From Candidatus Omnitrophota bacterium (lineage in GTDB: Bacteria > Omnitrophota > Gorgyraeia > B26-G9), in NCBI GenBank assembly GCA_043814605.1, contig JBDRJV010000013.1, positions 34,471 through 98,470 on the forward strand: a DNA stretch of 64,000 nt, given 5' to 3'. The notes under the pieces were generated by a model. The model did no database searches, was not told where the DNA came from, and saw only the letters and a program-made list of their open reading frames with translations. A program made the position numbers and the translations under genes. This document shows positions 6,680 to 50,640 of the stretch, in pieces. The first letter of the stretch is position 1; the number at the start of each line of letters is the position of its first letter.

Positions 6680-7438
6680 TTACGTTTCGATAGATGAGAC
6701 ATTACCTTTAGAGTTTTTCTCTTCGTACATTAACTTATCAGCTTTATCAAGTAATTCTTCAATCGTCTGCGGTTTTTCCGGGTGATAATACATCATGCCC
6801 AGGCTCACAGTAAGCTTATATTTAAAATTAGAATTCCGCATGGCTAATTTAAGATTTTCCTTTACACGCTTACGCAGAATATCTAAACTTTCTGCTTTTA
6901 ACTCTAAGGCTAATATTGCAAACTCATCACCTCCGATTCGCCCAATCACATCTGAGCCGCGGAATGTTTTATGCAGTACTTTGGCTATACACATAAGCGC
7001 TGTATCTCCCTGCTTATGCCCCAATTTATCATTAATATGTTTTAACCCATCTAAGTCTGCATAAATAAGTACCAACCCTCTTTGCATGCGATTGGATAAT
7101 TTTAAAAGATGGTTTGCATATAACAAAAATCCTCTTCGGTTATATAATTTGGTAAGTTCGTCAATAAGCGAAAGTTCTCGTTGGATAACTTCTGCTTTCT
7201 TTAACTTGTCAAACTGTATAGATAATGGTTTATAGAGCAATTGATAGAGCACCGGCGACAATATGATAACCAGCATAATTGACTCTATAAGTATTATATT
7301 GGGAGATTTAGGGATAGGCAGAAGCAAGAATAAATGCCCGATTATTAAATCACATATTAATATCGCAAATATTAATATGAGGAGTAATTTAAGTGGTGAA
7401 TGTTTTCTTTCAAAATCATCCGGCTTTAGTATTTTCAT
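6680..7438 (-). CDS. Membrane-anchored GGDEF diguanylate cyclase
   Basis: N-terminal TM helices; RRGF, DLDGLKHINDKLGH, GRIGGDEFAIL (GGDEF) motifs. Confidence 0.8.
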   Translation of the reverse strand: MKILKPDDFERKHSPLKLLLILIFAILICDLIIGHLFLLLPIPKSPNIILIESIMLVIILSPVLYQLLYKPLSIQFDKLKKAEVIQRELSLIDELTKLYNRRGFLLYANHLLKLSNRMQRGLVLIYADLDGLKHINDKLGHKQGDTALMCIAKVLHKTFRGSDVIGRIGGDEFAILALELKAESLDILRKRVKENLKLAMRNSNFKYKLTVSLGMMYYHPEKPQTIEELLDKADKLMYEEKNSKGNVSSIET

Positions 7439-8691: not shown

Positions 8692-9405
8692 TTATAGTGT
8701 TATTAAATCTCTTACTTTAATATTAATAAATTTATCTTTATAAATTTTTCTAAAAATTTTTTCTGCATGTCTTCCAGAACAATGCGTGGGGCCAACTTTT
8801 TGAACCCCCAGCTCTTTAAACTTGTCCGCAACTGTCTTGATTTCATTTAACGAACTATGCATCAAATGAAAACCGCCTAAAACGGCATAGATTTGTTTGT
8901 TAGGAAATTTTTCTTTTGCATATTCTACAATTTTCATAATTCCCGGATGCGCACATCCAGTGATAATACTTAATCCTTTATTTGTATCAACCATCAAAGC
9001 TTGTTCATAAATTTCTTTATCTTTATAATAACTTTTTATTTCTCCAGTTACATAAATATTTTCAGAGATTTTTTTAAAATCATAACTTTCAATTAAATTA
9101 CCTCTTCGCGCGTTTACATTAGTTTTAAATTGATTACTAAATCCAGGGCAGCTATACACATTTATTCCTGTTTCTTGTGCGAGGATTTCCCATAACCCCC
9201 CGGTATGGTCCCAATGGTCATGCGAAATTACAATGTGTTTTATATTTTTAATATCTATATCCATTTTACGCATATTTGAAAATAATATTTCTGCTTTAGA
9301 AAAAGTATCAAATAATATATTTTCACCGATTAAAAATGCCAGGCCCCAGTTTTTTCTAAATCTTTGCCATGGGGTTGAGCCTTTGGCAATTATTGTTATA
9401 TCCAT
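8692..9405 (-). CDS. MBL-fold metallo-hydrolase
   Basis: HDHWDHTGG (HxHxDH) motif. Confidence 0.8.
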   Translation of the reverse strand: MDITIIAKGSTPWQRFRKNWGLAFLIGENILFDTFSKAEILFSNMRKMDIDIKNIKHIVISHDHWDHTGGLWEILAQETGINVYSCPGFSNQFKTNVNARRGNLIESYDFKKISENIYVTGEIKSYYKDKEIYEQALMVDTNKGLSIITGCAHPGIMKIVEYAKEKFPNKQIYAVLGGFHLMHSSLNEIKTVADKFKELGVQKVGPTHCSGRHAEKIFRKIYKDKFINIKVRDLITL

Positions 9406-9408
9406 TAC

Positions 9409-9792
9409 TTAATCCTTTAATAAATAATTCGCAATTGCTCGATAGAGAGTACTCACAGCTAAAATAAAACAATGCTGATGGTTTTCCGGTAAATCCTTTA
9501 TCATCATTTTTACTTGTTGTGGCGAAATGCTTAATGCCTGATCAACAGTTTTTTTATGCGCTAACCGGGCGGTAGTTTCTGCACAAATAATTGTGGCCAT
9601 ACACCCAAGTTCAGTATAAAATTTTATATCCTCAATAATACCATTCTTAATACATAAATAAAATTCAAGCTCATCTCCGCAAGGGCCTTTTATTATTGCC
9701 GCAGCATCCGGAGCATTCATCCGTCCTGAATATTTTGTATTTTTTGCTATTGCCATTATTGAAGGTGAGTAAATTTGTTGATCTTTTTTCAT
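9409..9792 (-). CDS. NifU/IscU-like Fe-S scaffold domain protein
   Basis: GPCGDELEFYL ... LGCMATIICAE three-Cys pattern of NifU N-terminal domain. Confidence 0.55.
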   Translation of the reverse strand: MKKDQQIYSPSIMAIAKNTKYSGRMNAPDAAAIIKGPCGDELEFYLCIKNGIIEDIKFYTELGCMATIICAETTARLAHKKTVDQALSISPQQVKMMIKDLPENHQHCFILAVSTLYRAIANYLLKD

Positions 9793-9827
9793 TAATTTAT
9801 AATACCTTTATTTTATAAAAAAATTAA

Positions 9828-10445
9828 CTATTTTCTTGCCTGAATAACAATAAATCCCCCCTTACCAAATCCCTTGAGTGGTTTTTGCACTTTGGCTACT
9901 TTTACTGGTAAATCAAATATTGTTTGATAATAATTAAAATTACTAAATCCGTAGTTTTGTAATATTTGTTCTATTCCTGGAATATTAAAAAATTTTGCAT
10001 GTTTATAAAATAGGCTTTGTTTGCCTTGATAAAATTTTCCTAAAAAACTATCTTTATCAATAATACCAACAATAATTTGGCCTTTATTTTTTAATATCCG
10101 GTATACTTCTTCTAATACCCTGCCAGGATTCTGCATAAAACAAAGACTAATAATAATTATCGCATAATCAAAAGTTTTATTTTTAAACGGTAGGCTTTCT
10201 GCTTTAGCTACAGATACCCTTACCCCTTTTTGTGCAGCTTTTTTAAGCATTTTAACTGAAAGATCAATCCCTGTTTTTACATTTAAAGCTGCCGCAAATC
10301 TGCCTGTACCTACACCGATTTCTAATCCCTTGCCCTTTTTGGGCAAAACTCTCATGAGGGCTTCCAATTCAGACAGATAGGCAAATTTATTTCTATCATA
10401 CCAAGAATCATATTTTTTATAATGAGTGTCAAAAATATTTTGCAT
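9828..10445 (-). CDS. Class I SAM-dependent methyltransferase
   Basis: LEIGVGTGRF motif I. Confidence 0.75.
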   Translation of the reverse strand: MQNIFDTHYKKYDSWYDRNKFAYLSELEALMRVLPKKGKGLEIGVGTGRFAAALNVKTGIDLSVKMLKKAAQKGVRVSVAKAESLPFKNKTFDYAIIIISLCFMQNPGRVLEEVYRILKNKGQIIVGIIDKDSFLGKFYQGKQSLFYKHAKFFNIPGIEQILQNYGFSNFNYYQTIFDLPVKVAKVQKPLKGFGKGGFIVIQARK

Positions 10446-10449
10446 GTTT

Positions 10450-10815
10450 TTATTCTGCTTCTGGATTAAATTTCTTTTCTAATTTGGTTAAAAGTTTTAC
10501 TATTTGCTTGTTAATTTTATACAATTGGGACAATCCTGATTCTGCCATAGCGTTATTGTTTTCGTTTTTATCGTGAATGATTTGTTTTACCTGCCAATGC
10601 ATTTGGCAATAAATCTTTTCAAGCTCATTTACCTGAGGTAGATGCGCATATTTTTTCATCCCTTCCTGGTATAACCATTTGCTCAAAATATATTTTTCAC
10701 AGGAAACTGCCTGTTCTTCGCTAATATATTCTCCCCCATCAAGAAAGCATCTTAATCTCACGCTCCAAACTACGTGTTCTGTTAATTGATTCATAAAATT
10801 AATTGTTTTAGCCAT
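10450..10815 (-). CDS. Small His/Cys protein, CZB (chemoreceptor zinc-binding)-like
   Basis: H..W..RL...L.....SCEKYILSKWLYQEG....H resembles CZB H-x3-C-x-L-G-x-W pattern; weak. Confidence 0.3.
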   Translation of the reverse strand: MAKTINFMNQLTEHVVWSVRLRCFLDGGEYISEEQAVSCEKYILSKWLYQEGMKKYAHLPQVNELEKIYCQMHWQVKQIIHDKNENNNAMAESGLSQLYKINKQIVKLLTKLEKKFNPEAE

Positions 10816-10848
10816 ATTCCGAAAAAACCCCTGATCAAGCTTAATAAA

Positions 10849-11208
10849 TTATAAGTCCAAGTTTCCCCACCATCCATCATAGAACCTTTTCAGGTACTCG
10901 TAAAATTCTTCATCCATTGTATTTCTCTTTACATCTTTTTCTTTAAACGAATATTTATAACCAGCGCAATAGCTCATCAGAACATCATTTGCCTGAGCTA
11001 TTTTTTTAAACATTTCCTCGCATTCTTTTTTCTTCTCACCTCTACATTTGTCAGGATGATATTTAATGGCAAGTGTTCGATACGCATCTTTTATTTTATT
11101 CAAAGTTGCATATTCATCTAAGTCCAATATTTTTCTCGATGCATCAATTTGCATAAAATTTGCCATTTTATTTCCTGATTTTATATTTGCATTGCAAAAT
11201 TGAATCAA
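10849..11208 (-). CDS. DnaJ (J-domain) protein
   Basis: YRTLAIKYHPDK (HPD motif). Confidence 0.8.
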   Translation of the reverse strand: MIQFCNANIKSGNKMANFMQIDASRKILDLDEYATLNKIKDAYRTLAIKYHPDKCRGEKKKECEEMFKKIAQANDVLMSYCAGYKYSFKEKDVKRNTMDEEFYEYLKRFYDGWWGNLDL

Positions 11209-11213
11209 TTATT

Positions 11214-12116
11214 TTAATTGTGTTTTCTACTTTTACTATGGTGATATAATAAAACAATATCTCCAATGTTTGAATTAACCTTTTTTGCAATCACCGCACA
11301 TTTAGCTATAAACATAAAAAATACCGGCCTTTTACTGTTTGACAATGCTTCAAAATTCCCCTGCCCCTTACTAATTATCATATCAGCATTATTATAAATT
11401 TTTAAAAACTTTTTTGAACACAATCTAAGGACAGTTCCCGGAGCATCACTGCCGCTGGAAATAACCTCAGCAGTTTTATCAATCCCGCAAACAAGTGCAT
11501 CTTTTATTAAAGCATCATTAATCACTGGTTTTTCTTTTACCGCATATATAATTTCTTTAGTCTCATCCCCTCTCTTTATTTCTTCAATCAAAACACGGTC
11601 AAATACTGTTTCTCCTGCATTATCCGCTAAATAGAGAATAGTTTTTGCACGCTGTAACTGATAAGCAAATTTTCTAAAGCCAAAAATATTCTTGTTCTCT
11701 TTTTTAATAATTTGCTCTTCCTCATAAAGCAATTTATCCAGCTCTTTATCTACTTCTAAATGATTTTTTGCGCCATAGTCTATAATATTACCGATTATAG
11801 CTATCTCAACAGCAGTTAATAGTTTGATTTTCGAACATGCCACCTTTTTTTTTAATTTATCATAAATACGCAGCCCCACATCATTGCTCTTTTGTTTTAT
11901 CTGCGCGTACAAATCTGGGGTTCTAGTATTTTTTTTTAAAATTTTATTAACCATGCGGGCTACTTCCGGAGGAGAAACAGATAAAGACAATTTGGGTAAA
12001 GTCCCGGCTAGGGCATCAATAACTTTTTTCTGTTTTTTTTCGTTAAGGCCTGCCATCCGAGCCATTTCAATCGCTTGTCTAAAAAAACAAGGAATACAAT
12101 CTAAATATATTTTCAT
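11214..12116 (-). CDS. DUF89 (ARMT1-like damage-control phosphatase/methyltransferase family)
   Basis: Size and ISKGQGNFEAL motif typical of DUF89. Confidence 0.55.
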   Translation of the reverse strand: MKIYLDCIPCFFRQAIEMARMAGLNEKKQKKVIDALAGTLPKLSLSVSPPEVARMVNKILKKNTRTPDLYAQIKQKSNDVGLRIYDKLKKKVACSKIKLLTAVEIAIIGNIIDYGAKNHLEVDKELDKLLYEEEQIIKKENKNIFGFRKFAYQLQRAKTILYLADNAGETVFDRVLIEEIKRGDETKEIIYAVKEKPVINDALIKDALVCGIDKTAEVISSGSDAPGTVLRLCSKKFLKIYNNADMIISKGQGNFEALSNSKRPVFFMFIAKCAVIAKKVNSNIGDIVLLYHHSKSRKHN

Positions 12117-12159
12117 TTTTATTTCTCATTATAAAAATTAACATCACTATATGAAAATC

Positions 12160-12768
12160 CTATTCTTTAAAAATTGAAAATAGCCTGCGAGGAATTCCTA
12201 TGGCCAAGCTATCCCTTCTAATATTCGCATACTTACGGGAATCATTACAGCCAAAAGAAATATTAATATCATTCTCTAAATAAGTATTGACAGCAATGCC
12301 TCCGCAAATCGACATCATTGAGGACAAAGAAAAATTTAATCTTTTTCCTGTAAGAATATTATATTTTTTTATCAATTCCATAACATCCTCAGGCGGCAAA
12401 TAAGATATGATCATGTCTGGGAAATCATCTGTGTTTAATCCAATACACTCCACGGATTTTTTTAATGCAGAAATTTGCCGAAACATATCTATAAAAACAA
12501 AATTTTTTGTTTTATGTTTGTTATTACATTTTTTTAAAATATTGTTTTTTAAAGTATTTCCCCATCCAAATACATGTTTTGCACCCAGGCAAGATATACT
12601 TTTTCGATTTAACAACACCGGCTCAAACAATGCTTTATGCGTAGCCTCGCAAAATTTAATATTTTTCAATGGTTTAATTCCATTAAGCTTAGGATTTTTC
12701 TTATAGAATTTAACTTTAATCCAATGATTTCTAAGTCTATCTAAAATATTTTGATTAATTTTTACCAT
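12160..12768 (-). CDS. DUF169-like protein
   Basis: ~200 aa Cys-containing protein; DUF169 is a classical neighbour of MinD/Mrp-ferredoxin ATPases; assignment from memory of family. Confidence 0.35.
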   Translation of the reverse strand: MVKINQNILDRLRNHWIKVKFYKKNPKLNGIKPLKNIKFCEATHKALFEPVLLNRKSISCLGAKHVFGWGNTLKNNILKKCNNKHKTKNFVFIDMFRQISALKKSVECIGLNTDDFPDMIISYLPPEDVMELIKKYNILTGKRLNFSLSSMMSICGGIAVNTYLENDINISFGCNDSRKYANIRRDSLAIGIPRRLFSIFKE

Positions 12769-12783
12769 TATGCTATCCTTCCC

Positions 12784-13665
12784 TTAAGTGTTTATTTCTT
12801 GTTTTAACCTTTCCCAAATATCAATAATTGCTTTTTTTACCGGAGAATTATCATATTCAATGATTGTTTTTCCTTCTACCATTGCCTTAACTACTGATTT
12901 ATCAAAACAAATTTTTCCACTTAGTTTAATGTTATTTTCAAAACAAAATTTTTCAATTTTTTCAGACATATTAATATTTAGATCATATTTATTTATTATC
13001 AACCTTACTGGAACATTAAAGTGCTGTGTAACTTCAATCACACGCATTGCATCATGCAAACCAGAAAGAGTTGGTTCAGTTACTACTAAAGCAAGATCTA
13101 TACCGGATAAAGAAGCAATAACCGGACATCCAATACCTGGAGCTCCATCAATAATAACCCAATTATAATTATTTTCTTCTGCCAATTGCTTTGCTCTATT
13201 CCGTACTAAAGATACAAGCTTTCCTGAATTTTCCTCAGCAATACCCAGCTTCGCATGTACCATGGGACCAAAACGAGTATCCGAAATAAACCAATGCCCG
13301 GAAAGGTTTTCTTGCATAATAATCGCTTTTTTAGGACAGATAAAACTGCAAAACCCGCATCCTTCACAATCAATAGGATCAATCATAAAACTCTTTTCTA
13401 TAGATGCATTATTTTTTACAGCAAAAAAACGACAAACATTAAAACAATTTCCACAATTATTGCATAGGCTTGGGTTAATTCGCGCTGTTTTGCCGCTTCT
13501 AAATTCATACTTTTCTTTTATTTGTGGATGAAGTAAAAGATGCAGATCCGCAGCATCTACATCGCAATCTGCAAAACAAGCGTTTTTAGCTAAAGCTGCT
13601 AATGCTCCGGTAAGAATAGTTTTACCTGTTCCGCCTTTGCCACTAATAATAACTATTTGTTTCAT
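12784..13665 (-). CDS. MinD/Mrp/ParA-type P-loop ATPase with two 4Fe-4S ferredoxin motifs
   Basis: GKGGTGKT deviant Walker A; CNNCGNCFNVC and CEGCGFCSFICP ferredoxin motifs. Confidence 0.8.
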   Translation of the reverse strand: MKQIVIISGKGGTGKTILTGALAALAKNACFADCDVDAADLHLLLHPQIKEKYEFRSGKTARINPSLCNNCGNCFNVCRFFAVKNNASIEKSFMIDPIDCEGCGFCSFICPKKAIIMQENLSGHWFISDTRFGPMVHAKLGIAEENSGKLVSLVRNRAKQLAEENNYNWVIIDGAPGIGCPVIASLSGIDLALVVTEPTLSGLHDAMRVIEVTQHFNVPVRLIINKYDLNINMSEKIEKFCFENNIKLSGKICFDKSVVKAMVEGKTIIEYDNSPVKKAIIDIWERLKQEINT

Positions 13666-14514
13666 TTACTTAGTTCTCAAAATTTTTTGAAACATTGTTA
13701 AAAAACTATTTTTATATTCTGGAAATTTTTCTACTATGGAAATGCCCTGAGAATAGCTTTGAGCAATTTCTTTTTTAAAAGGAATCTGCATCAATACTGG
13801 AATTTTTTCTTTTTCGCAGTATGTTTCTGTTGCCTTATCCCCTAGGTCAGAACGATTGATTAAAACCCCAAATGGTATTTTTAATTTTCTTACAACTTCA
13901 ACTGCTAAAATTAAATCGTTTAAGCCAAAAGGAGTAGGTTCGGTTACCAGTAAACAAAAATCACTCCTTCTTAAAGAAGAAACTACCGGGCATGATGTTC
14001 CCGGGGGGACATCAATAATCACTGTTTTCTCTGGATTAATATATTTTTTAACTTGACGGATTAAAGGCGGAGCCATTGCTTCGCCTACATTAAGTTTTCC
14101 GTGGATAAATTCTATGCCCCGACAAACACCTTTTTCTACAATACCAATTTCCTTATTGACTTCGGTGATTGCTTTTTGAGGGCAAAAAAAACTGCAGGCT
14201 CCGCAACCATGACAGAGATTTGTAAAAACCAGAATACTTCCTTTTCTGTTTTCCTTAGCTGGTAACACAGCGAATGCATTATACGCACATACTTGGCGGC
14301 ACCTGCCGCAGTAAATACATTTTTTTTCATCAATTAGCGGCACTGGAATATATGCTTTTTCCTGCTCTTTTATTTCCGGATTTAAAAAGATATGTGCGTT
14401 AGGCTCTTCTACATCACAATCAAGAAATTGCACATTTTGTATCGACAAAGCTAAATTCACTGCAACTGTAGTTTTTCCGGTTCCGCCTTTGCCACTGGCA
14501 ACAGAAATAATCAT
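13666..14514 (-). CDS. MinD/Mrp/ParA-type ATPase with 4Fe-4S ferredoxin motifs (paralog)
   Basis: GKGGTGKT; CIYCGRCRQVC, CHGCGACSFFCP. Confidence 0.8.
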   Translation of the reverse strand: MIISVASGKGGTGKTTVAVNLALSIQNVQFLDCDVEEPNAHIFLNPEIKEQEKAYIPVPLIDEKKCIYCGRCRQVCAYNAFAVLPAKENRKGSILVFTNLCHGCGACSFFCPQKAITEVNKEIGIVEKGVCRGIEFIHGKLNVGEAMAPPLIRQVKKYINPEKTVIIDVPPGTSCPVVSSLRRSDFCLLVTEPTPFGLNDLILAVEVVRKLKIPFGVLINRSDLGDKATETYCEKEKIPVLMQIPFKKEIAQSYSQGISIVEKFPEYKNSFLTMFQKILRTK

Positions 14515-14525
14515 TTAAATTCCTT

Positions 14526-15131
14526 TTAATGTTTATCCGAAATTATTAAATCCTGATTTTCACCTTTAATTTCTCTTACCCAAAAACCCCTGCGCATTAA
14601 ATAATCCCTTAAATCTTTTAATGTAACAAAACTCTTATTATGATTGCGTCCTTCGGCTTTATGTATCTGGTCTAAAATACTAAATCCATTTTTATTAAAG
14701 TCACTTAAAATAATTTTCCCCCCAGGCAAAACTAAACGTATCATTTCCGCAATTGCTTTGTAAGGATTACTTAAATGGTGAATTGTATTGACCGAAAAAA
14801 TCACATCAAAACTTGAATCATTAAAACCTAAGTTTTCTGCATTAGCAATTTTAAAATTTACTTTTTCTTTAACTTTGAAATATTCTAGATTTAATTTGGC
14901 TAATGCCTGGTCCTCTTTAGATATATCTACACTTGTAAAACTATAGCCCTGTTTTGCTAATGCTAAAGTAAAGTGCCCTTTTCCTGTGCCTATTTCTAAA
15001 ATATTTCCCTTGATCGGTAATGAATTATTTAAAATAAATTCTTTTTCTTTATTTCGGTCTATACCGAATTTTTTAAAAACCTCAATTCTTTCTAAAAATA
15101 TTTGATGATTTTCCAAGACTTTTTTTCGCAT
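14526..15131 (-). CDS. Class I SAM-dependent methyltransferase
   Basis: ILEIGTGKGHFTLALA motif I. Confidence 0.75.
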   Translation of the reverse strand: MRKKVLENHQIFLERIEVFKKFGIDRNKEKEFILNNSLPIKGNILEIGTGKGHFTLALAKQGYSFTSVDISKEDQALAKLNLEYFKVKEKVNFKIANAENLGFNDSSFDVIFSVNTIHHLSNPYKAIAEMIRLVLPGGKIILSDFNKNGFSILDQIHKAEGRNHNKSFVTLKDLRDYLMRRGFWVREIKGENQDLIISDKH

Positions 15132-15135
15132 ATTA

Positions 15136-15372
15136 TTAGCCTCTACTCATGGGGATATTACACTTAGGACAATTCATATGCGTACAGGGCAATCCCGATT
15201 GATGTCCAATTTTCATTCCGCAATTAGCACAAACACAAAATCCTCCCGGGCCTCTACCCTGAATTCCCTTCCTTACAAATCTTCCTTGGCCTGCGCCTAA
15301 ACCTCTTCCTGTTCCAGGGCCTTGTCCCTGAGGGCCTGTTCCATCTCCTCTTGGCATATTGCACCTCCTCAA
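15136..15372 (-). CDS. DUF5320-like small Gly-rich protein with C-terminal Cys/His zinc-ribbon (likely starts at internal Met, MPRGDGTGP)
   Basis: MPRGDGTGPQGQGPGTGRGLG N-terminus; CVCANCG...H...C.H.NCPKC tail. Confidence 0.55.
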   Translation of the reverse strand: MRRCNMPRGDGTGPQGQGPGTGRGLGAGQGRFVRKGIQGRGPGGFCVCANCGMKIGHQSGLPCTHMNCPKCNIPMSRG

Positions 15373-15377
15373 TTATA

Positions 15378-15743
15378 TTAACTCATGCCAAAATGAGACG
15401 TTACGTTAGGTTTATCAATTGTTTTAAACTTATTATTTTTATATTGTTCAATAATTTCTTTTATTTTTCCCGAAGCTCCAGTAATAACTCTTATCCCTCC
15501 AGCTTTTAAAGTGTTAAAAGCATTTGGGCCTACATTCCCGGTAATTACAATTTCTGCTAACTTTTCTGATATTAATTGTCCGGATTGGATTCCTGCCCCG
15601 CCCGAACTATCAATATTAGGATTTTTTATTGCTTCAAATTCCAGAGTATCAGGATTAACAATTATAAAATACTGGCAACGACCAAAATGAGGATCAACCT
15701 GTGATTCTAAATTATCTCCTTGAGACGTAATACATATTTTCAT
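15378..15743 (-). CDS. NifX/NifB-type dinitrogenase FeMo-cofactor domain protein
   Basis: MKICITSQGDNLESQVDPHFGRCQYFIIV typical of Nitro_FeMo-Co family. Confidence 0.8.
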   Translation of the reverse strand: MKICITSQGDNLESQVDPHFGRCQYFIIVNPDTLEFEAIKNPNIDSSGGAGIQSGQLISEKLAEIVITGNVGPNAFNTLKAGGIRVITGASGKIKEIIEQYKNNKFKTIDKPNVTSHFGMS

Positions 15744-15754
15744 TTATTTTCCTC

Positions 15755-16156
15755 CTATTCATGTTCACAATCATCTTCGTGGGGATGATCACAAGCTGTT
15801 TTTTCTACTCCATAACCTTTTCCTGCTCCGGGACTACAAAGGCTTTCTCCTCCTTCAAGCTTTCCATTAATAAAAGCCTCAATCACATTATCAACTTTAC
15901 CGCTAATTCCCATTATGGTTTGGATATTAACTTCGGAAAATAATTCTCTTGCTCTCATTCCCATCCCCCCGGCTACTATTGCCTGCACACCTTTCTCATG
16001 CAAAAAACGCGGTAAAAATCCCGGATGATGTCCCGGATTATTTAAAATTTCTGAGCTTATTATTTTATTCTGCTCTATCTCTACAATTGTAAAAGCTGGA
16101 CAGCGACCAAAATGAGCAGATACTAAATCTCCATCTGTAGAAATTGCAATTTTCAA
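15755..16156 (-). CDS. NifX/NifB-type FeMo-cofactor domain protein with C-terminal CDHPHEDDCEHE tail (TTG start)
   Basis: MKIAISTDGDLVSAHFGRCPAFTIV; His/Cys/acidic C-terminus. Confidence 0.8.
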   Translation of the reverse strand: MKIAISTDGDLVSAHFGRCPAFTIVEIEQNKIISSEILNNPGHHPGFLPRFLHEKGVQAIVAGGMGMRARELFSEVNIQTIMGISGKVDNVIEAFINGKLEGGESLCSPGAGKGYGVEKTACDHPHEDDCEHE

Positions 16157-16204
16157 AATTAACCTCCTTTAATGATCTCGCCTTGGCGGGAGAATTAAAC
16201 CCCG

Positions 16205-16237
16205 AATCGAACTTGTTCTGGTTCGGGGTTAATCCAA
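16205..16237 (-). promoter_or_regulatory. Intercistronic GC stem-loop (aaccccgaa...ttcggggtt)
   Basis: 9-bp perfect stem between DUF5320-like gene and NifX-like gene; no T-run, so probably processing/attenuation rather than terminator. Confidence 0.35.
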
Positions 16238-16246
16238 ATCTCTTCA

Positions 16247-16600
16247 CTATTTAGTTTCTTCCTCTTCTTTTACTGCATTAAGTTCTTTTATCCGCTGATT
16301 TATAGCTTGTATTTCATCTTGCATAAATTTTACCTGTTCTTTTAAAAATTCAGTTTCGGTTCTAGGTGTAATCCCAAAATCATTTACTCCATAAGCATAT
16401 GAAGCCATTCTCCGCCAGCCAAATCCCTGTCCTCTACCATATCCTCTACCAAACCCCCGTCCATAACCAAAACTACCACGTCCAGGCGCTGAATTCATAT
16501 AGCCTGATACAGGATAACCAGCACAATAACCTCTTCCGCCACCTGTAAATGGACCTTGCCCTCTTGGCCCAGTTCCGTCAAAACCTGGCATATCAATCAC
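16247..16600 (-). CDS. DUF5320-like protein (MPGFDGTGPRGQGPFTGGGRGYCAGY...) with C-terminal coiled coil
   Basis: N-terminal motif; Gly/Tyr/Arg-rich middle; EIQAINQRIKELNAVKEEEE. Confidence 0.55.
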   Translation of the reverse strand: MIDMPGFDGTGPRGQGPFTGGGRGYCAGYPVSGYMNSAPGRGSFGYGRGFGRGYGRGQGFGWRRMASYAYGVNDFGITPRTETEFLKEQVKFMQDEIQAINQRIKELNAVKEEEETK

Positions 16601-16624
16601 CTCCTAAATGAGTCCCGCCGTATT

Positions 16625-16662
16625 CTTGCAGAATGCAAGAGTCGGGACGAATTTAGTCTTGC
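16625..16662 (-). promoter_or_regulatory. 5'-UTR hairpin directly upstream of RBS of 16247..16600
   Basis: gtcccg-ccgta-ttcttgca-gaa-tgcaagag-t-cgggac imperfect long hairpin. Confidence 0.35.
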
Positions 16663-16714
16663 CAATGCACACTCCCTTGAATGGACTTGGCAGACAAATA
16701 TTTTAAATCTTTTT

Positions 16715-16741
16715 TATTAATGAAAACCATTTTCATTAATA
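16715..16741. promoter_or_regulatory. Fur-family-box-like perfect palindrome TATTAATGAAAA-cca-TTTTCATTAATA
   Basis: 12-bp inverted repeat, 3-bp spacer, AT-rich (operator-like, not terminator-like), between Fur-family gene and the downstream 14-gene operon. Confidence 0.5.
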
Positions 16742-16753
16742 GGTTAAAAAAAT

Positions 16754-17227
16754 TTAGCTTTTTTTTCTGCATTTATCACATATTCCATAAAATTGAATTA
16801 TGTGACTTGTGATTTCAAAGTTGTATTTATTAGACAATCCCTTCTCAGTTTTTTTCAGTAATTCTATTTCGTCATTTATAAAATCAGTATACTCAATTAT
16901 ACGATTACATTCTTTACATACCAGATGATGGTGATGATGACTTTTCTTTGATCCCTCAACAAGTTCATACCTTGATCTTCCGTCTCCAAAATCAAACTTA
17001 AAAACAAGACTCATGTTAACCAGTATTTCTAGTGTCCTATAAACAGTTGTCAGTCCAACCGCCGGGTAAATTGGATGAATTTTATTATAAATATCTTCTG
17101 CGCTGAGATGTTTATCTGCGATCATTAACGCATCTAAGATAGCCTCTCTGCCTGCTGTAATTCGATAACCGCAGCCTCTGAATCTCCCATGCCACCACAT
17201 TGGGCCTGTTCCATCTCGTCTTGGCAT
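16754..17227 (-). CDS. Fur-family metalloregulator with N-terminal MPRRDGTGP (DUF5320-like) extension
   Basis: ILDALMIADKHLSAEDIYNKI...VGLTTVYRTLEIL wHTH; HHHHH; CKECNRII...CDKCR. Confidence 0.8.
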   Translation of the reverse strand: MPRRDGTGPMWWHGRFRGCGYRITAGREAILDALMIADKHLSAEDIYNKIHPIYPAVGLTTVYRTLEILVNMSLVFKFDFGDGRSRYELVEGSKKSHHHHHLVCKECNRIIEYTDFINDEIELLKKTEKGLSNKYNFEITSHIIQFYGICDKCRKKS

Positions 17228-17393
17228 ATCAAAACTCCTTATTGAAAACTATTCCCATTTATAAATATACCTTATCTTAAAAACTTTGTCAAGTTTTTTT
17301 ACTTATTTTAGTGATATTAGAGGTTAAAAATTATGGATTGTTATAACTTTAAGATATTACTCTTCGCCATCTTAAGTGATATAAAGCGTAATA

Positions 17394-19229
17394 TTATTTT
17401 GATTGCGCACTACGGATAATCCGCTTACGATTTATTTCTGTTAAATGCCATTTCCGAAGCCTGATATGCTTAGGAGTTATCTCCACTAATTCATCATCCT
17501 CGATAAACTCAAGCGCAAACTCCAGGGTCATTTGCCGCGGAGGGATAAGTACAATCGCCTCATCACTTCCGGATGCGCGCATATTCGTTAATTTTTTCCC
17601 CCGTAAAGCATTTACAACCAGATCTGTCCCTTTGTTGTTCACGCCAATGATCATACCCTCATATAATTTTTCTCCTGGTTTAACAAAAATCTCACCCCGT
17701 GCCTGTAAATTATAAAGCGCATAGGCCACTGTATCTCCGCTTCCCTGGGAAATAAGTACGCCGTTTTGCCGTGTCGGCAGAATTCCTTTATAAGTTTGGT
17801 ATTCAAGAAAATTCTGGTACATAATACCACTGCCTCGGGTCATCATCAAGAATTCGCTGCGAAAACCAATTAATGCCCTTGAAGCAATCACAAATTCCAT
17901 GCGAATAGTACCTAAAGATGTTTCTTTTATAACGCGCATTTGAGCCTTGCGAACTCCCAGCGCTTCCATAACAACACCCTGGTACTCATTTTCCACCTCG
18001 ATAATCACCTCTTCAACAGGTTCAAGTGTTTGCTCTCCCATTTTCTTTAAAATAACCTGCGGCCTGGATACTTCCATCTCATACCCTTCACGCCGCATTG
18101 TTTCAATAAGAATAGCCAGATGCAGTTCTCCGCGGCCGGAAACTTTTAACCGCTCAGTTCCTTCAACTGCCTCAACTTTAATACCCACATTGATCATTGC
18201 CTCATGCTCAAGGCGCTCCCGCAAATGTCGTGAAGTTAAAAATCTGCCTCCATCCTTACCGGAAAGAGGGCTTGTATTATGAGAAAAATTCATCGAAATC
18301 GTCGGCTCATCTATTTTAATCGCTGGCAATCCTTTTGGCTCATCAACACATGCAAGTGTCTCACCCACCTCTACGTCTTCTATCCCGGATATTAATATAA
18401 TATCTCCGGCGATTGCTTCATTAACTTCAACTCGGACTAGGCCGCGATACTTCATAATCTTAGTTGCCTTACCTCTGACAATCGTTCCATCCCGTTTAAC
18501 AAGCGCTACAGGATCTCCCACATGCACAGTTCCGTGGAAAACTCTGCCTATCGCAATTCGCCCCACATAAGAATCATAATCAAGCATTGTCACCAGCATT
18601 TGAAAAGGTAAATCAGGGTTAGCTATCGGCGGCAATACTCTATGTAAAATAGTTTCTAAAAGCGGTTTCATTGATTCTTTGGGTTCATCAAGATCAAGAG
18701 TTGCATATCCATCTTTTCCTGATGCATAAACAATCGGAAAATCGAGCTGTTCGTCAGTTGCATTCAGATCACAGAAAAGATCAAATGTCATATCCGCCAC
18801 TTCATCCGGCCGGGAATGGGTACGATCAAGCTTATTGATTACAAGTATGGGTTTTAAATGTAATTCCAGTGACTTTTTCAAAACAAATTTAGTCTGCGGC
18901 ATGGGCCCTTCAAAAGCATCAACAAGCAGAAGCACTCCATCAACCATCTTCAAGATTCGTTCAACCTCACTGCCAAAATCAGCATGACCCGGCGTATCAA
19001 CAATATTGAACTGTACTCCTTTATATTGCAAAGAAGCGTTTTTAGACAGAATAGTTATCCCGCGTTCTTTTTCCAAAGGATTTGAGTCCATTATCGCAGT
19101 TTCGCCTTTTTTAAAATCATAAGCGCCGGTATATTTAAGCAAGGCATCGACAAGCGTAGTTTTCCCATGGTCAACATGCGCGATAATTGCAATGTTCCTT
19201 ACATCTTTTCTTCTTTTTTGATTTAGCAT
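17394..19229 (-). CDS. typA: Translational GTPase TypA/BipA
   Basis: IAIIAHVDHGKTTLVDALL, DTPGHADF, NKLD; EF-G-like domain order; 611 aa. Confidence 0.9.
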   Translation of the reverse strand: MLNQKRRKDVRNIAIIAHVDHGKTTLVDALLKYTGAYDFKKGETAIMDSNPLEKERGITILSKNASLQYKGVQFNIVDTPGHADFGSEVERILKMVDGVLLLVDAFEGPMPQTKFVLKKSLELHLKPILVINKLDRTHSRPDEVADMTFDLFCDLNATDEQLDFPIVYASGKDGYATLDLDEPKESMKPLLETILHRVLPPIANPDLPFQMLVTMLDYDSYVGRIAIGRVFHGTVHVGDPVALVKRDGTIVRGKATKIMKYRGLVRVEVNEAIAGDIILISGIEDVEVGETLACVDEPKGLPAIKIDEPTISMNFSHNTSPLSGKDGGRFLTSRHLRERLEHEAMINVGIKVEAVEGTERLKVSGRGELHLAILIETMRREGYEMEVSRPQVILKKMGEQTLEPVEEVIIEVENEYQGVVMEALGVRKAQMRVIKETSLGTIRMEFVIASRALIGFRSEFLMMTRGSGIMYQNFLEYQTYKGILPTRQNGVLISQGSGDTVAYALYNLQARGEIFVKPGEKLYEGMIIGVNNKGTDLVVNALRGKKLTNMRASGSDEAIVLIPPRQMTLEFALEFIEDDELVEITPKHIRLRKWHLTEINRKRIIRSAQSK

Positions 19230-30530: not shown

Positions 30531-30745
30531 TGGCTCCCTGTATTATCTGTCCCCAGCGCTTGATTTGCCTTCCTTTTCCTGTATTAAATTTTATTTATGC
30601 AAAATTTGCAGGAGTCAATCAGCCGGGGAGACTAGTTTCGCCCCTTGAAATTGCTAAGCAATTTCAGGGACTAACGTCCTGGGAATCCAGAGGATTCCAC
30701 AGGGTCAGTTTTTCAAGAAAAAAATAATCCTGACTTTTTATTGTA
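30531..30745 (-). repeat. Composite repeat: Y-module variant (loop insertion) fused to X-module
   Basis: tggctccctgtattatctgtccccagcgcttgatttg...aatcagccggggagactagtttcgcc + gaaattgctaagcaatttcagggactaacgtcctgggaatccagaggattccacaggg. Confidence 0.8.
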
Positions 30746-38454: not shown

Positions 38455-38606
38455 AATTAATCAATCTTAATCCTATGTATTAATAAACTTTTCTGCGGCT
38501 TTTACCTGTGCCTGAAATGGATATCCATGATAAAATTTTATCATCAACTTAAAAAAGATTCAATTTATTTCATCTAAAAACGCAACAATAGCAAATAGAT
38601 ATGATT

Positions 38607-50330: not shown

Positions 50331-50555
50331 ACCCATAGTTTTGATTCTCAAAACAGGCATGGGCACAGGCGCGAGGACTCGGCTACTACACTCCCAACAT
50401 CGTGTTGGTCTATTGCGTAGCCTCCCCTACATTCACTAAATTTGCAGTCCACGCCCAGTACCGTCCCGCCTTGGCGGGACTGGTTCTGGGCTGCAAATTT
50501 GAGCTCCCACTTGGTCGCTCCGTTCACTCCGCTTCGATTCCTAGCCCGGGATGAT
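50331..50555 (-). ncRNA. ~235-nt GC-rich structured repeat element, copy G
   Basis: See 40309..40545; lies between AbiEi promoter region and tRNA-Asn terminator. Confidence 0.4.
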
Positions 50556-50599: not shown

Positions 50600-50640
50600 T
50601 GGCTCCCCCGCGAGGACTCGAACCTCGGACAAATTGGTTA

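What the first reader, a model, noticed from the sequence alone, without database searches (positions are those of the whole stretch)
16601..16753. Operator-like perfect palindrome plus leader hairpin between the Fur-family gene and the operon
TATTAATGAAAA-cca-TTTTCATTAATA (16715..16741) is a perfect 12-3-12 inverted repeat. It is AT-rich, so operator-like rather than a terminator. It lies 13 nt after the Fur-family stop and ~115 nt before the first operon start. A 38-nt imperfect hairpin (16625..16662) abuts the RBS. Together they look like a Fur/Zur/PerR-type box with a possible additional leader structure.
Basis: seen in the sequence. Interest (0 to 1): 0.5.

Follow-up and report, generated by a model that had tools for sequence, protein, structure and literature searches.

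The report
Fur-box operator inside a fur–metallocluster operon
The palindrome is a real, strongly conserved binding site (Fur box) for the Fur-family repressor encoded just upstream. It most likely lets that repressor shut off a long operon of metal-cluster assembly genes, so it is a well-supported but fairly ordinary kind of regulatory element seen here in a little-studied bacterial lineage.

Summary
The 12-3-12 palindrome at 16715..16741 is real and not chance: 0.07 perfect palindromes of this size are expected per shuffled window. All genes here lie on the minus strand. The site sits 12 nt after the fur-family stop codon and 127 nt before the ATG of a DUF5320 gene. That gene heads a tightly packed ~8 kb array of genes like those of the orange-protein (ORP) complex and Fe-S cluster assembly.

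The core ATGAAAATGGTTTTCAT matches the published delta-proteobacterial Fur box WTGAAAATNATTTTCAW at 15 of 16 specified positions. A second, degenerate copy (17239..17261) lies between the -10 element and the ribosome-binding site of fur's own near-consensus promoter. In about 100 related loci from many anaerobic phyla, the same box recurs at exactly these two places: 49 of 56 testable loci at the fur promoter and 41 of 56 after the fur stop. Where the DUF5320 gene is unlinked, the box lies behind that gene's own promoter.

So the operator reading is supported. Binding, the sensed metal and the transcription starts remain untested.

The "38-nt hairpin" is mis-bounded. The real structures are two stem-loops (16695..16656 and 16656..16604) in a leader that is hypervariable between relatives and matches no Rfam family.

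One feature is unexplained: a conserved T7 run 7-8 nt upstream of the box, with no recognisable -35 element.

The parts
16715..16741 (-). Operator O2: a perfect 12-3-12 palindrome. The conserved 23-mer is 16739..16717 (TTAATGAAAATGGTTTTCATTAA on the minus strand). The 19-bp Fur-box core is 16737..16719, centred on G16728.
   Evidence: Searches confirm the palindrome (0.07 expected by chance). One search gives a PWM score of 32.0 bits. One search gives the published consensus WTGAAAATNATTTTCAW, matched at 15 of 16 specified positions. Searches show the box 13-34 nt after the fur stop in 41 of 56 testable loci.
17239..17261 (-). Operator O1: a degenerate Fur box (TAAATGGGAATAGTTTTCAATAA) lying between the -10 element of the fur promoter and the fur ribosome-binding site (GGAG, 17238..17235). 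It probably covers the transcription start.
   Evidence: locate it. One search scores it at 20.2 bits, the only other PWM hit in 64 kb. Searches find a box at this position in 49 of 56 testable loci.
17264..17292 (-). The fur promoter (P_fur): TTGACA (17292..17287), a 17-nt spacer, then TATATT (17269..17264). It matches the sigma-70 consensus at 11 of 12 positions.
   Evidence: One search identifies it. It is conserved in orthologues, where the mean best score is 11.0 of 12. It is the best promoter-like site on the minus strand in 9.5-17.5 kb.
16754..17227 (-). Fur-family repressor gene (157 aa). It carries an HHHHH motif and two CxxC motifs, plus a 21-residue N-terminal extension (MPRRDGTGPMWWHGRFRGCGY) typical of a widespread subfamily.
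   Evidence: Pfam FUR, E = 1.5e-30. The best NCBIfam match is Bacillus-type Fur at 126 bits, below its cutoff; PerR scores 92 bits. PDB 9ire matches at 3e-27. There are 1904 homologues, 66-94% identical among the best 120 listed, from several candidate phyla; the alignment is. The AlphaFold model shows a canonical Fur fold with residues 1-21 at pLDDT below 50.
16746..16752 (-). T7 run, starting 2 nt after the fur stop codon and ending 8 nt before the AATG of the box. It belongs to a conserved composite, (T)ATA-T7-N7/8-box, whose role is unexplained.
   Evidence: the T-run is 7 nt long in 24 of 38 loci and the gap is 7 nt in 25 of 38. One search finds no -35 element. One search finds no preceding hairpin in the window (MFE 0).
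16656..16695 (-). Leader stem-loop 1 (GUCUGCCAAG...UUGGCAAGAC).
   Evidence: centroid structures. Its basal stem is shared with L020. It is absent from L002 and L021.
16604..16656 (-). Leader stem-loop 2, a compound hairpin (CUAAAU..GUCCCG..CUUGCA-uuc-UGCAAG..CGGGAC..AUUUAG). It ends inside the first 2 nt of the ribosome-binding site.
   Evidence: -20.3 kcal/mol, z -4.69. There is no Rfam match. No homologue was found in the window or in the 19 genome loci held; later showed the identical copy L022 and partial similarity in L020.
16700..16726 (-). Candidate weak internal promoter. The right arm of the box, TTTTCA (16726..16721), would serve as a -35-like hexamer, followed by a 15-nt spacer and TAAAAT (16705..16700). 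A start near G16695 would make stem-loop 1 the 5' end of the mRNA. This is inference only.
   Evidence: Read directly from the sequence. The 15-nt spacer is outside the 16-18 nt range of the promoter scan, which did not report it.
16247..16605 (-). First regulated gene, encoding a DUF5320 protein (ATG at 16591, 114 aa), together with its ribosome-binding site AGGAGG at 16605..16600.
   Evidence: Pfam DUF5320, E = 2.8e-27. A DUF5320 gene is the gene downstream of the box in nearly all related loci.
8692..16246 (-). The rest of the tightly packed minus-strand gene array behind O2. It encodes two NifX-like proteins (Nitro_FeMo-Co), a short DUF5320 protein, a SAM methyltransferase, two MinD-type ATPases with 2x[4Fe-4S] domains (like the ORP-complex subunits Orp3/Orp4), a DUF169 protein, an ARMT1-like phosphatase, a DnaJ-domain protein, a second methyltransferase, an IscU-like protein (NifU_N) and a metallo-beta-lactamase-fold protein.
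   Evidence: The NifX-like proteins match the C-terminal domain of MrpORP. The composition of the ORP complex is described in PMC6345978.

Best explanation
The palindrome is the second of two DNA operators (Fur boxes) for the Fur-family repressor encoded immediately upstream. In its metal-loaded form (most likely Fe2+, by analogy), the repressor dimer binds O1 and O2. O1 overlaps the start of its own near-consensus promoter and gives autoregulation. O2 sits in the spacer between fur and the DUF5320 gene.

O2 blocks expression of the downstream ~8 kb gene array, which resembles the orange-protein (ORP) complex and Fe-S cluster assembly genes. It would do so by stopping RNA polymerase that reads through from the fur promoter (a roadblock), by occluding weak internal promoters that overlap or abut the box, or both. 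When the co-repressor signal falls, both sites clear and the operon is expressed. This is analogous to Fur control of the suf Fe-S assembly operon in E. coli.

Shown: the palindrome itself, the second copy, the promoter context, the match to the published consensus, and conservation at both positions across many lineages.

Inferred: binding by this particular protein, the identity of the co-repressor, and which of the roadblock and promoter-occlusion routes dominates (roughly even odds).

The leader hairpins are most likely lineage-specific stabilising or processing stem-loops of the kind that recur in intercistronic gaps of this operon. They are not a sensor.
For: 1. The palindrome is real and improbable by chance (0.07 expected; 32.0 bits, 0.03 hits expected per shuffled window).

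2. Only two PWM hits occur in the 64-kb window, and they flank the fur gene. O1 lies between the -10 of TTGACA-17-TATATT and the ribosome-binding site.

3. The core matches the delta-proteobacterial Fur box WTGAAAATNATTTTCAW, which was derived from feoAB and fur upstream regions (PMC545781), at 15 of 16 specified positions.

4. The footprint is conserved across lineages. Of 56 testable loci encoding this Fur subfamily, 49 have a box just downstream of a near-consensus promoter (mean 11.0 of 12), and 41 have a box 13-34 nt after the fur stop. Where the DUF5320 gene is separated from fur (L011, L013, L015, L016), it has its own TTGACA-17-TATATA promoter followed by the box and the ribosome-binding site. 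In 409 kb of related loci, every PWM hit of at least 20 bits whose neighbouring gene could be read lies directly upstream of a fur-family gene or a DUF5320 gene, with one exception (L039); about ten further hits had no readable gene beside them.

5. Conservation is of sequence, not of pairing. Nine positions are essentially invariant, there is no covariation, and O1-type sites keep only 6.2 of 9 complementary pairs. This points to protein-DNA recognition rather than an RNA stem.

6. No terminator separates fur from O2 in the window, so read-through from the fur promoter is expected. In L003, L005, L006 and L025 the DUF5320 gene abuts or overlaps the fur stop, which shows that co-transcription is an accepted state in this family.

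7. The neighbouring protein is a bona fide Fur-family member, closest to Bacillus-type Fur.
Against: - There is no experimental binding, footprint or transcription-start data for any member of this subfamily.
- No sigma-70-like promoter precedes O2 (best scores average 7.2 of 12, the same as shuffled sequence at 7.1). The classical picture of an operator overlapping a promoter therefore holds only for O1. For O2 the mechanism, roadblock or weak promoter, is inferred.
- The Fur protein scores below every NCBIfam equivalog cutoff, so iron versus peroxide, zinc or another signal is open.
- No feoAB or other classical iron-uptake target with a box was seen in the window or the loci, so a link to iron rests on the box type and on sequence similarity only.
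- O2 is not systematically stronger than O1 across loci (Wilcoxon p = 0.26), so no general hierarchy of the two sites can be claimed.
- The conserved T7 run upstream of O2 is not explained by the model.
Confidence: 0.8

Rival explanations
1. The element works mainly at the RNA level. The transcribed palindrome forms an AU-rich hairpin that, with the preceding U7 tract, acts as an RNase E or RNase Y type processing site. After cleavage, the hairpin serves as a 5' stabiliser for the downstream mRNA. This would uncouple the levels of fur mRNA and operon mRNA.
For: - The box lies downstream of the -10 element, so it is transcribed in all three contexts.
- The RNA hairpin folds at -7.4 kcal/mol, z -4.9.
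- The U7 run occurs only in the context that follows the fur stop codon.
- G:U-compatible substitutions slightly outnumber A:C ones in O1-type sites (1.1 against 0.6 per site).
Against: - Strict base identity is kept at 9 positions with no compensatory changes, and O1 sites keep only about 6 of 9 pairs.
- The sequence equals a published Fur-box consensus.
- The element always travels with a fur-family gene.
- An RNA role could exist alongside the DNA operator, but it does not explain the sequence conservation.
Confidence: 0.08
2. The DNA operator and the adjacent repressor are as described, but the signal is not iron. This Fur subfamily would sense peroxide or redox state (like PerR), another metal, or the loading state of the ORP-like cluster machinery, through its conserved Cys-containing N-terminal extension.
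For: - The protein is below every Fur, PerR and Zur equivalog cutoff; PerR models score 92 bits against 126 for Fur.
- The N-terminal motif WWHGRFRGCGY, with a nearly invariant Cys19, is absent from characterised Furs.
- Its first 10 residues match the N-terminus of DUF5320 proteins (hhalign P = 4.3e-4).
- The visible regulon is only fur plus the DUF5320 operon.
- In Desulfovibrio vulgaris the orp operons respond to a redox-sensing Fe-S regulator, OrpR (PMC8359166).
Against: - The box type is the one tied to feoAB and fur in delta-proteobacteria.
- The best sequence and structural matches are iron Furs.
- The canonical His-rich and CxxC motifs are intact.
- The N-terminus is predicted with low confidence, which gives no hint of a metal site.
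Confidence: 0.25
3. The palindrome is the intrinsic terminator of the fur gene, or an attenuator.
For: It lies 12 nt after the stop codon, it can form a hairpin, and a T7 run is nearby.
Against: - The stem is entirely A/U apart from 2 G-C pairs, and AAAAAAG rather than a T-run follows it.
- The T7 run lies upstream of the hairpin.
- The terminator scan does not call it.
- No hairpin precedes the T7 run in the window (MFE 0.0), and in only 6 of 38 loci does the segment before the T-run fold markedly better than shuffled copies (z below -2).
- The same box also sits at 5' ends downstream of promoters.
Confidence: 0.02
4. The palindrome is a chance product of AT-rich sequence, or the target of an unrelated regulator encoded elsewhere.
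For: The window has 35% G+C. The bare half-site with 2 mismatches is common: 67 hits against 47.5 expected.
Against: - The full palindrome is expected 0.07 times and the PWM hit 0.03 times per window.
- The position is conserved across more than 40 loci and several phyla while the flanks diverge.
- The element is strictly linked to fur-family genes.
Confidence: 0.01

Closest known systems
Delta-proteobacterial Fur box (dFUR-box, WTGAAAATNATTTTCAW; Rodionov et al. 2004, PMC545781)
   Same: It is the same 17-bp inverted repeat; the window site matches at 15 of 16 specified positions and the family consensus TTAATGAAAATGATTTTCATTAA matches fully. It is found upstream of fur genes themselves, indicating autoregulation. 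Overlapping boxes shifted by 6 bp also occur in some related loci (L016, L049, L056, L070, L089), as described for Desulfovibrio.
   Different: The host lineage differs: Omnitrophota / PVC-group and other candidate phyla. The target is a DUF5320/ORP-like operon rather than feoAB, and no feoAB site was seen here. One of the two sites lies after the regulator's stop codon with no recognisable promoter. The regulator carries an N-terminal extension.
Bacillus subtilis Fur 7-1-7 box (TGATAATnATTATCA) and the classical 19-bp E. coli Fur box (GATAATGATNATCATTATC)
   Same: The architecture is the same 7-1-7 inverted repeat, with one base different per half-site (TGAaAAT against TGAtAAT; from my own knowledge of the Baichoo and Helmann model). 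The protein's best family match is Bacillus-type Fur.
   Different: Position 4 of each half-site differs. According to PMC545781, the E. coli profile does not detect boxes of this type.
Fur repression of the suf Fe-S cluster assembly operon in E. coli (from my own knowledge)
   Same: A Fur-family repressor controls genes for metal-cluster assembly and carrier proteins. Here these include IscU-like, Mrp/MinD-like and NifX-like proteins.
   Different: The gene set is different and non-orthologous. The operator here is intra-operonic. The direction of the physiological response is untested.
orp operons of Desulfovibrio vulgaris Hildenborough (orange-protein complex; PMC6345978, PMC3897727, PMC8359166)
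   Same: The downstream genes have the same domain types as the complex subunits: MinD-type ATPases with two [4Fe-4S] motifs (Orp3/Orp4-like) and NifX-like 'Di-Nase' domain proteins (Orp8 and the C-terminal domain of MrpORP).
   Different: In D. vulgaris the operons are driven by sigma-54 with the activator OrpR and IHF. Here a sigma-70-type promoter and a Fur-family repressor are used. Orthology of individual genes was not tested.
Operators placed downstream of the promoter or inside operons that act as transcriptional roadblocks (for example B. subtilis CodY, CcpA and PerR sites; from my own knowledge)
   Same: O2 is transcribed and lies between the regulator gene and its targets, with no terminator and no strong promoter.
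   Different: Roadblock action is inferred here and not shown. Weak internal promoters cannot be excluded.

Membership tests
Fur box / Fur-family operator (dFUR type) | A 17-19 bp AT-rich inverted repeat matching WTGAAAATNATTTTCAW | tested here: met
   The minus-strand 17-mer ATGAAAATGGTTTTCAT matches at 15 of 16 specified positions. The PWM score is 32.0 bits.
Fur box / Fur-family operator (dFUR type) | A cognate Fur-family regulator is encoded in the genome, typically with an autoregulatory site | tested here: met
   The fur-family gene lies 12 nt upstream (Pfam E = 1.5e-30). The second box sits in its own promoter.
Fur box / Fur-family operator (dFUR type) | The site is conserved in front of orthologous genes in other genomes (phylogenetic footprint) | tested here: met
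   A box is present at the fur promoter in 49 of 56 testable loci and after the fur stop in 41 of 56, and it lies behind the separate DUF5320 promoters. The flanks diverge.
Fur box / Fur-family operator (dFUR type) | The site overlaps the promoter or transcription start of the regulated gene | tested here: inconclusive
   This is met for O1, which lies between the -10 element and the ribosome-binding site of an 11-of-12 promoter. For the palindrome O2, no sigma-70-like promoter lies upstream (7.2 of 12, equal to shuffled sequence). Only weak candidates exist: TAAATT next to the T-run, and TTTTCA-15-TAAAAT.
Fur box / Fur-family operator (dFUR type) | Metal-dependent binding by the Fur protein, and derepression on metal limitation | not testable with these tools
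   This needs EMSA or footprinting and expression data.
Fur protein family (PF01475), iron-sensing Fur in the strict sense | A winged-helix DNA-binding domain plus a dimerisation domain with a His-rich regulatory site and a structural CxxC...CxxC site | tested here: met
   The Pfam match covers the full length. HHHHH, CKEC and CDKC are conserved. The AlphaFold model shows a canonical fold for residues 22-157.
Fur protein family (PF01475), iron-sensing Fur in the strict sense | Assignment to the Fur (iron) orthologue group rather than PerR, Zur or Irr | tested here: not met
   The best hit is NF051892 (Bacillus Fur) at 126 bits against a cutoff of 220. PerR scores 92 bits against 180. All are below their cutoffs, so the subfamily is unassigned.
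Intrinsic (Rho-independent) terminator | A G+C-rich stem-loop followed directly by a T-run | tested here: not met
   The stem is AT-rich, an A-run follows it and the T-run is upstream. The scan does not call it. No hairpin precedes the T7 run.
Known cis-regulatory RNA (riboswitch or leader) for the 16600..16714 leader | A match to a curated covariance model, or a conserved structure with covariation | tested here: not met
   There is no Rfam match even at E up to 10 and none in the related long leaders. The leader is absent from L002 and L021 and is non-homologous in L004, L007, L012 and L103.
ORP (orange-protein complex) gene cluster | Orp3/Orp4-type MinD ATPases with 2x[4Fe-4S] motifs, plus NifX-like (Orp8 / MrpORP C-terminal domain) proteins | tested here: met
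   The domain architectures match. There are NCBIfam MrpORP C-terminal-domain hits at 7e-30 and 1e-10. The complex is described in PMC6345978. This is similarity of domains only; orthology and complex formation were not tested.
ORP (orange-protein complex) gene cluster | A sigma-54/OrpR-dependent promoter | tested here: not met
   The only strong promoter is sigma-70-like, and the operator is a Fur box. No enhancer-binding-protein gene lies in the cluster.

The most novel reading that the evidence does not exclude
This would be a dedicated Fur subfamily ('WWHG-Fur') whose gene was inserted into the 5' end of its own target operon. In doing so it copied the promoter-proximal module of box, ribosome-binding site and the first ~10 codons (MPRGDGTGP) of the DUF5320 gene.

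The regulator would then carry the same N-terminal tag as the first product of the operon it controls. It could sense the state of the ORP-like metallocluster machinery through a partner that binds that tag, rather than (or as well as) sensing free iron.

The second box, with its rigidly spaced T7 tract and no promoter, would be a purpose-built intra-operon roadblock or processing module that uncouples regulator and target expression.
Probability: 0.15. Interest if true: 0.7.

Novelty: new member of a known kind. Interest (0 to 1): 0.4.

Why it matters
This gives a concrete, testable regulatory link for two poorly understood things. One is the DUF5320 family together with the ORP-like, anaerobe-specific metallocluster gene clusters, whose function is still unclear even in Desulfovibrio. 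The other is metal homeostasis in uncultured phyla such as Omnitrophota, Nitrospirota and WOR-3.

A single 23-bp motif and a recognisable Fur subfamily now mark this operon across many metagenomes. That allows regulon prediction and interpretation of metatranscriptomes.

The operator itself is a conventional Fur box, so its mechanistic novelty is modest. The promoter-less second site, with its fixed T7-N7 spacing, and the N-terminal tag shared by the regulator and its target are the parts a specialist might find unexpected.

Tried and rejected
1. Terminator reading. It is rejected because the terminator scan is negative, the stem is AT-rich, the T-run is on the wrong side, and no hairpin precedes the T-run.

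2. Known RNA family for the leader or the box. Rfam at E up to 10 on 16100..17500, on five related loci and at the gathering threshold on the whole window gave nothing relevant.

3. The leader as a repeated element (REP- or MITE-like). BLAST of the leader against the window and the 19 genome loci held at that point found nothing beyond 14-nt chance matches. Later comparisons showed an identical copy in L022 and partial similarity in L020. A related hairpin-plus-ribosome-binding-site module does recur at 16176..16193 and in L020.

4. A conserved leader structure. Leaders in L004, L007, L012, L020 and L103 each fold into 2-3 stable hairpins but are not alignable beyond short stretches. There are too few sequences for covariation, so no covariance model was built.

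5. A sigma-70 promoter upstream of O2. Scores are no better than shuffled sequence. Anchoring on the T-run showed no -35 or extended -10 signal.

6. A general affinity hierarchy with O2 stronger than O1. This is not supported across loci (p = 0.26), although in this window the scores are 32.0 against 20.2 bits.

7. Half-site enrichment in the window. It is marginal and uninformative in 35% G+C DNA.

8. Other regulon members. There are no further PWM hits in the 64-kb window. In the related loci, the only clear non-canonical target is a small Cys-rich protein gene in L039.

9. Structure of the N-terminal extension. AlphaFold2 gives pLDDT below 50 for residues 1-21, which is uninformative.

10. 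Literature. No paper in the searchable library links DUF5320 or ORP-like clusters to Fur.
Full report
**Observation.** All genes around the finding lie on the minus strand. Read on that strand, the order of features is as follows.

1. A near-consensus sigma-70 promoter: TTGACA (17292..17287), a 17-nt spacer, then TATATT (17269..17264).
2. A degenerate palindrome, TAAATGGGAATAGTTTTCAATAA (17261..17239).
3. The ribosome-binding site GGAG, then a 157-aa Fur-family gene (17227..16754; Pfam FUR E = 1.5e-30).
4. The stop codon TAA (16756..16754), one A, and a T7 run (16752..16746).
5. Four bases (aacc), then the perfect 12-3-12 palindrome TATTAATGAAAA-tgg-TTTTCATTAATA (16741..16715).
6. A structured leader, the ribosome-binding site AGGAGG (16605..16600), and the ATG at 16591 of a DUF5320 gene.

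Perfect palindromes with arms of at least 12 nt occur 0.07 times per shuffled window. The distances are 12 nt from the stop codon and 114 nt (to the GTG) or 127 nt (from the core to the ATG) to the next start.

The "38-nt hairpin 16625..16662" is not a discrete hairpin on the transcribed strand (z -1.3). The leader actually forms two stem-loops: 16695..16656, and a 53-nt compound one at 16656..16604 (-20.3 kcal/mol, z -4.7). The second ends inside the first two bases of the ribosome-binding site.

**What the palindrome is.** Its 19-bp core, AATGAAAATGGTTTTCATT, matches the Fur-box consensus that Rodionov et al. derived for delta-proteobacteria from feoAB and fur upstream regions, WTGAAAATNATTTTCAW (PMC545781). 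It matches 15 of 16 specified positions; the single mismatch is the innermost base of one arm.

I built a position weight matrix from orthologous sites, excluding the window itself. It gives only two hits of at least 17.7 bits in the 64 kb: the palindrome (32.0 bits, near the maximum) and the site in the fur promoter (20.2 bits). In shuffled sequence 0.03 hits are expected.

**Comparative evidence.** The Fur protein belongs to a large, highly conserved subfamily. It has 1904 homologues at E up to 1e-10, and the best 120 listed are 66-94% identical over their full length. They come from Omnitrophota / PVC group, Nitrospirota, WOR-3, Endomicrobiales, Auribacterota and unclassified metagenome bins.

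I fetched 19 genome loci, 80 metagenome loci and 7 further contigs that encode close homologues. Of the 56 loci of this subfamily with enough flanking DNA (the window and an identical metagenome contig, L022, are among them):

- 49 have a box with at most 5 mismatches within 70 nt upstream of fur. It always lies 2-3 nt downstream of a TTGACA-17-TATAnT promoter (mean match 11.0 of 12) and abuts the ribosome-binding site.
- 41 have a box 13-34 nt after the fur stop, in front of a DUF5320 gene.

Two other arrangements occur.

- In L011, L013, L015 and L016 other genes separate fur from the DUF5320 gene. There the DUF5320 gene has its own TTGACA-17-TATATA promoter, then 3 to 10 nt, the box and the ribosome-binding site.
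- In L003, L005, L006 and L025 the DUF5320 gene abuts or overlaps the fur stop and there is no second box.

In 409 kb of loci, nearly all of the remaining PWM hits of at least 20 bits turned out to lie directly upstream of a fur-family or DUF5320 gene that my first heuristic had missed. One hit lies before a small Cys-rich protein gene (L039), about ten had no readable gene next to them, and none lies inside a credible long coding region.

Both site classes carry 33-34 bits of information, with nine essentially invariant positions (A.TG..AA...TT..CA). There is no covariation, and the promoter-proximal sites keep only about 6 of 9 complementary pairs. This is the signature of protein-DNA recognition rather than of an RNA stem.

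**The regulator.** Its best family match is Bacillus-type Fur (NF051892, 126 bits), ahead of PerR (92 bits) and Zur (36 bits), but every match is below its equivalog cutoff. The best solved structure is a Fur (9ire, 3e-27). The His-rich HHHHH motif and two CxxC motifs are conserved.

The subfamily has a 21-residue N-terminal extension, MPRxDGxGPxWWHG(R/K)F(R/K)GCGY. AlphaFold2 predicts it with low confidence, while the rest of the protein is a canonical Fur fold. The first ~10 residues of the extension are the same motif that opens DUF5320 proteins (MPRGDGTGP...). A profile-profile comparison gives P = 4.3e-4 for that decapeptide only.

**The regulated genes.** Behind the palindrome lies an uninterrupted minus-strand array running to about 8692. 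It encodes:

- a DUF5320 protein;
- two NifX-like (Nitro_FeMo-Co) proteins;
- a short DUF5320 protein;
- a SAM methyltransferase;
- two MinD-type ATPases with 2x[4Fe-4S] inserts;
- a DUF169 protein and an ARMT1-like phosphatase;
- a DnaJ-domain protein;
- a second methyltransferase;
- an IscU-like (NifU_N) protein;
- a metallo-beta-lactamase-fold protein.

The NifX-like proteins match the C-terminal domain of MrpORP. The MinD/ferredoxin proteins have the architecture described for Orp3 and Orp4 of the Desulfovibrio orange-protein (ORP) complex (PMC6345978). In Desulfovibrio those operons are controlled by sigma-54, OrpR and IHF (PMC3897727 and PMC8359166); here they would be controlled by a Fur-family repressor. 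This comparison rests on domain similarity. Orthology was not tested.

**How O2 most likely works.** O1 is a textbook autoregulatory operator covering the start region of a strong promoter. O2 is different.

- No sigma-70-like promoter precedes it. The best scores average 7.2 of 12, indistinguishable from shuffled sequence at 7.1.
- No terminator separates it from fur in the window. The 33 nt before the T-run have an MFE of 0.0.

Read-through from the fur promoter is therefore expected, and Fur bound at O2 would act as a roadblock between the regulator gene and its targets. That arrangement lets an autoregulated, never fully silent promoter coexist with tight repression of the operon.

Two weak internal promoters cannot be excluded in the window.

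- A -10-like TAAATT that runs into the T-run (TATATT in most relatives).
- TTTTCA (the right arm of the box) followed by a 15-nt spacer and TAAAAT (16705..16700). Its predicted start, near G16695, coincides with the first base of leader stem-loop 1.

Fur at O2 would block both. I put the operator reading at about 0.8, and roadblock against promoter occlusion at roughly even odds. The identity of the co-repressor is an inference: probably Fe2+, given the box type and the protein similarity. About 0.25 goes to a different signal.

**The leader.** The 127-nt leader of the window is identical in one metagenome contig (L022), is partly shared with L020 (the basal stem of stem-loop 1), and is absent from the two other closest relatives (L002 and L021, with 94% and 91% Fur identity). 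In those the box lies 25 nt from the ATG.

Other relatives with long leaders (L004, L007, L012, L020, L103) have different sequences. Each folds into two or three stable hairpins, and the last hairpin ends 6-12 nt before the ribosome-binding site. There are no Rfam matches.

A near-identical module of hairpin plus ribosome-binding site (TCTCCCGCCAAGGCGAGA...AGGAGG) precedes the next gene in the window (16176..16193) and forms the last leader hairpin in L020. I therefore read the leader hairpins as variable intercistronic stabilising or processing stem-loops, with low confidence, and not as a conserved sensor.

**Unexplained.** Between the fur stop and O2, nearly all loci share (T)ATA-T7-N7/8-AATG. 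The T-run is exactly 7 nt in 24 of 38 loci and the gap exactly 7 nt in 25 of 38. The composite is absent where the DUF5320 gene has a full promoter or overlaps fur. In only 6 of 38 loci does the sequence just before the T-run fold markedly better than shuffled copies (z below -2), and in about five of these the hairpin abuts the T-run and would make it terminator-like. Candidate roles are a -10-only promoter, an AU-rich RNase site in front of the box hairpin, or a DNA bend. None was testable here.

**Verdict.** The palindrome is a genuine Fur-family operator of a published type, validated by a second local copy and by strong phylogenetic footprinting. It is a new member of a known kind, in a new lineage and with a new target operon. 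Its placement is unusual, and the N-terminal motif shared by the regulator and its target is curious. Interest is moderate (0.4).

Noticed in passing
window 16754..17227 (residues 1-21 of the Fur protein) versus 16247..16591 and 15136..15372: The Fur protein's N-terminus (MPRRDGTGP-MWWHGRFRGCGY) begins with the same decapeptide as the DUF5320 proteins of the operon it appears to control (MPGFDGTGP..., MPRGDGTGP...). The extension is conserved throughout this Fur subfamily (57 N-termini listed). Together with the duplicated module of box and ribosome-binding site, this suggests that fur captured the 5' end of a DUF5320 gene.
   Followed up: partly
window 16746..16752, and the equivalent position in about 38 related loci: A rigidly spaced T7 run lies 7-8 nt upstream of the second Fur box, directly after the fur stop codon. 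It has no -35 element and usually no hairpin before it. Its function is unexplained.
   Followed up: partly
window 50649..50926 (-), with 50600..50640 and 50875..51192: There is a group I intron (Rfam RF00028, 72.3 bits, E = 2e-16). Directly after it comes what looks like the 3' end of a tRNA (…GGTTCGAGTCCTCGCGGGGGAGCCA) and a terminator hairpin. An HNH-like ORF (CANCHREIH) overlaps the upstream end of the intron. ARAGORN finds no intact tRNA in the window, which fits an intron-interrupted tRNA gene.
   Followed up: partly
window 16176..16193 (-), and L020 1638..1655: The hairpin TCTCCCGCCAAGGCGAGA, followed by a ribosome-binding site, precedes the first NifX-like gene. The same module forms the last leader hairpin in front of the DUF5320 gene in relative L020. 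It is a recurring intercistronic hairpin-plus-ribosome-binding-site cassette. A related hairpin (AGTCCCGCCAAGGCGGGA) lies at 50464..50481.
   Followed up: partly
L030, L032, L033, L063, L067: In one sub-clade (Fur N-terminus MPRGNCxGQGWWHGKF) and a few other loci, the 3' end of fur forms a short hairpin that directly abuts the T7 run (down to -9 kcal/mol; z below -2 in these five loci). This makes a weak terminator-like element just before the second box. The window's clade lacks it.
   Followed up: partly
L016 5168/5174, L049 2461/2467, L056 2469/2475, L070 2442/2448, L089 2452/2458: [quoted passage not shown] This is the arrangement Rodionov et al. described for Desulfovibrio.
   Followed up: no
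window 8692..12116 (-): The operon behind the box continues well beyond the ORP-like genes. It includes an ARMT1-like damage-control phosphatase, a DnaJ-domain protein, a 121-aa protein with no Pfam match, a second methyltransferase, an IscU-like (NifU_N) protein and a metallo-beta-lactamase-fold protein. A 10-of-12 promoter-like site (12157..12128) and a weak box-like sequence (12148..12170) lie in the gap between the DUF169 and ARMT1-like genes.
   Followed up: partly
window 7353..7379, 30646..30666, 38527..38544, 41930..41958: Other perfect palindromes are present: CATATTAATAT-cgcaa-ATATTAATATG (11-5-11), TGAAATTGCT-a-AGCAATTTCA (10-1-10), ATGATAAAATTTTATCAT (9-0-9, loosely Fur-box-like) and AAAGACCCAGTT-taatt-AACTGGGTCTTT (12-5-12, terminator-like). 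None was examined.
   Followed up: no
L039 1772..1794: This is the only clear non-canonical target of the box in the related loci. A 26-bit site lies 15 nt upstream of the start of a 122-aa Cys-rich protein gene (MEKKRIAVIACKNIKGISCVGGCLKCFKG...).
   Followed up: no
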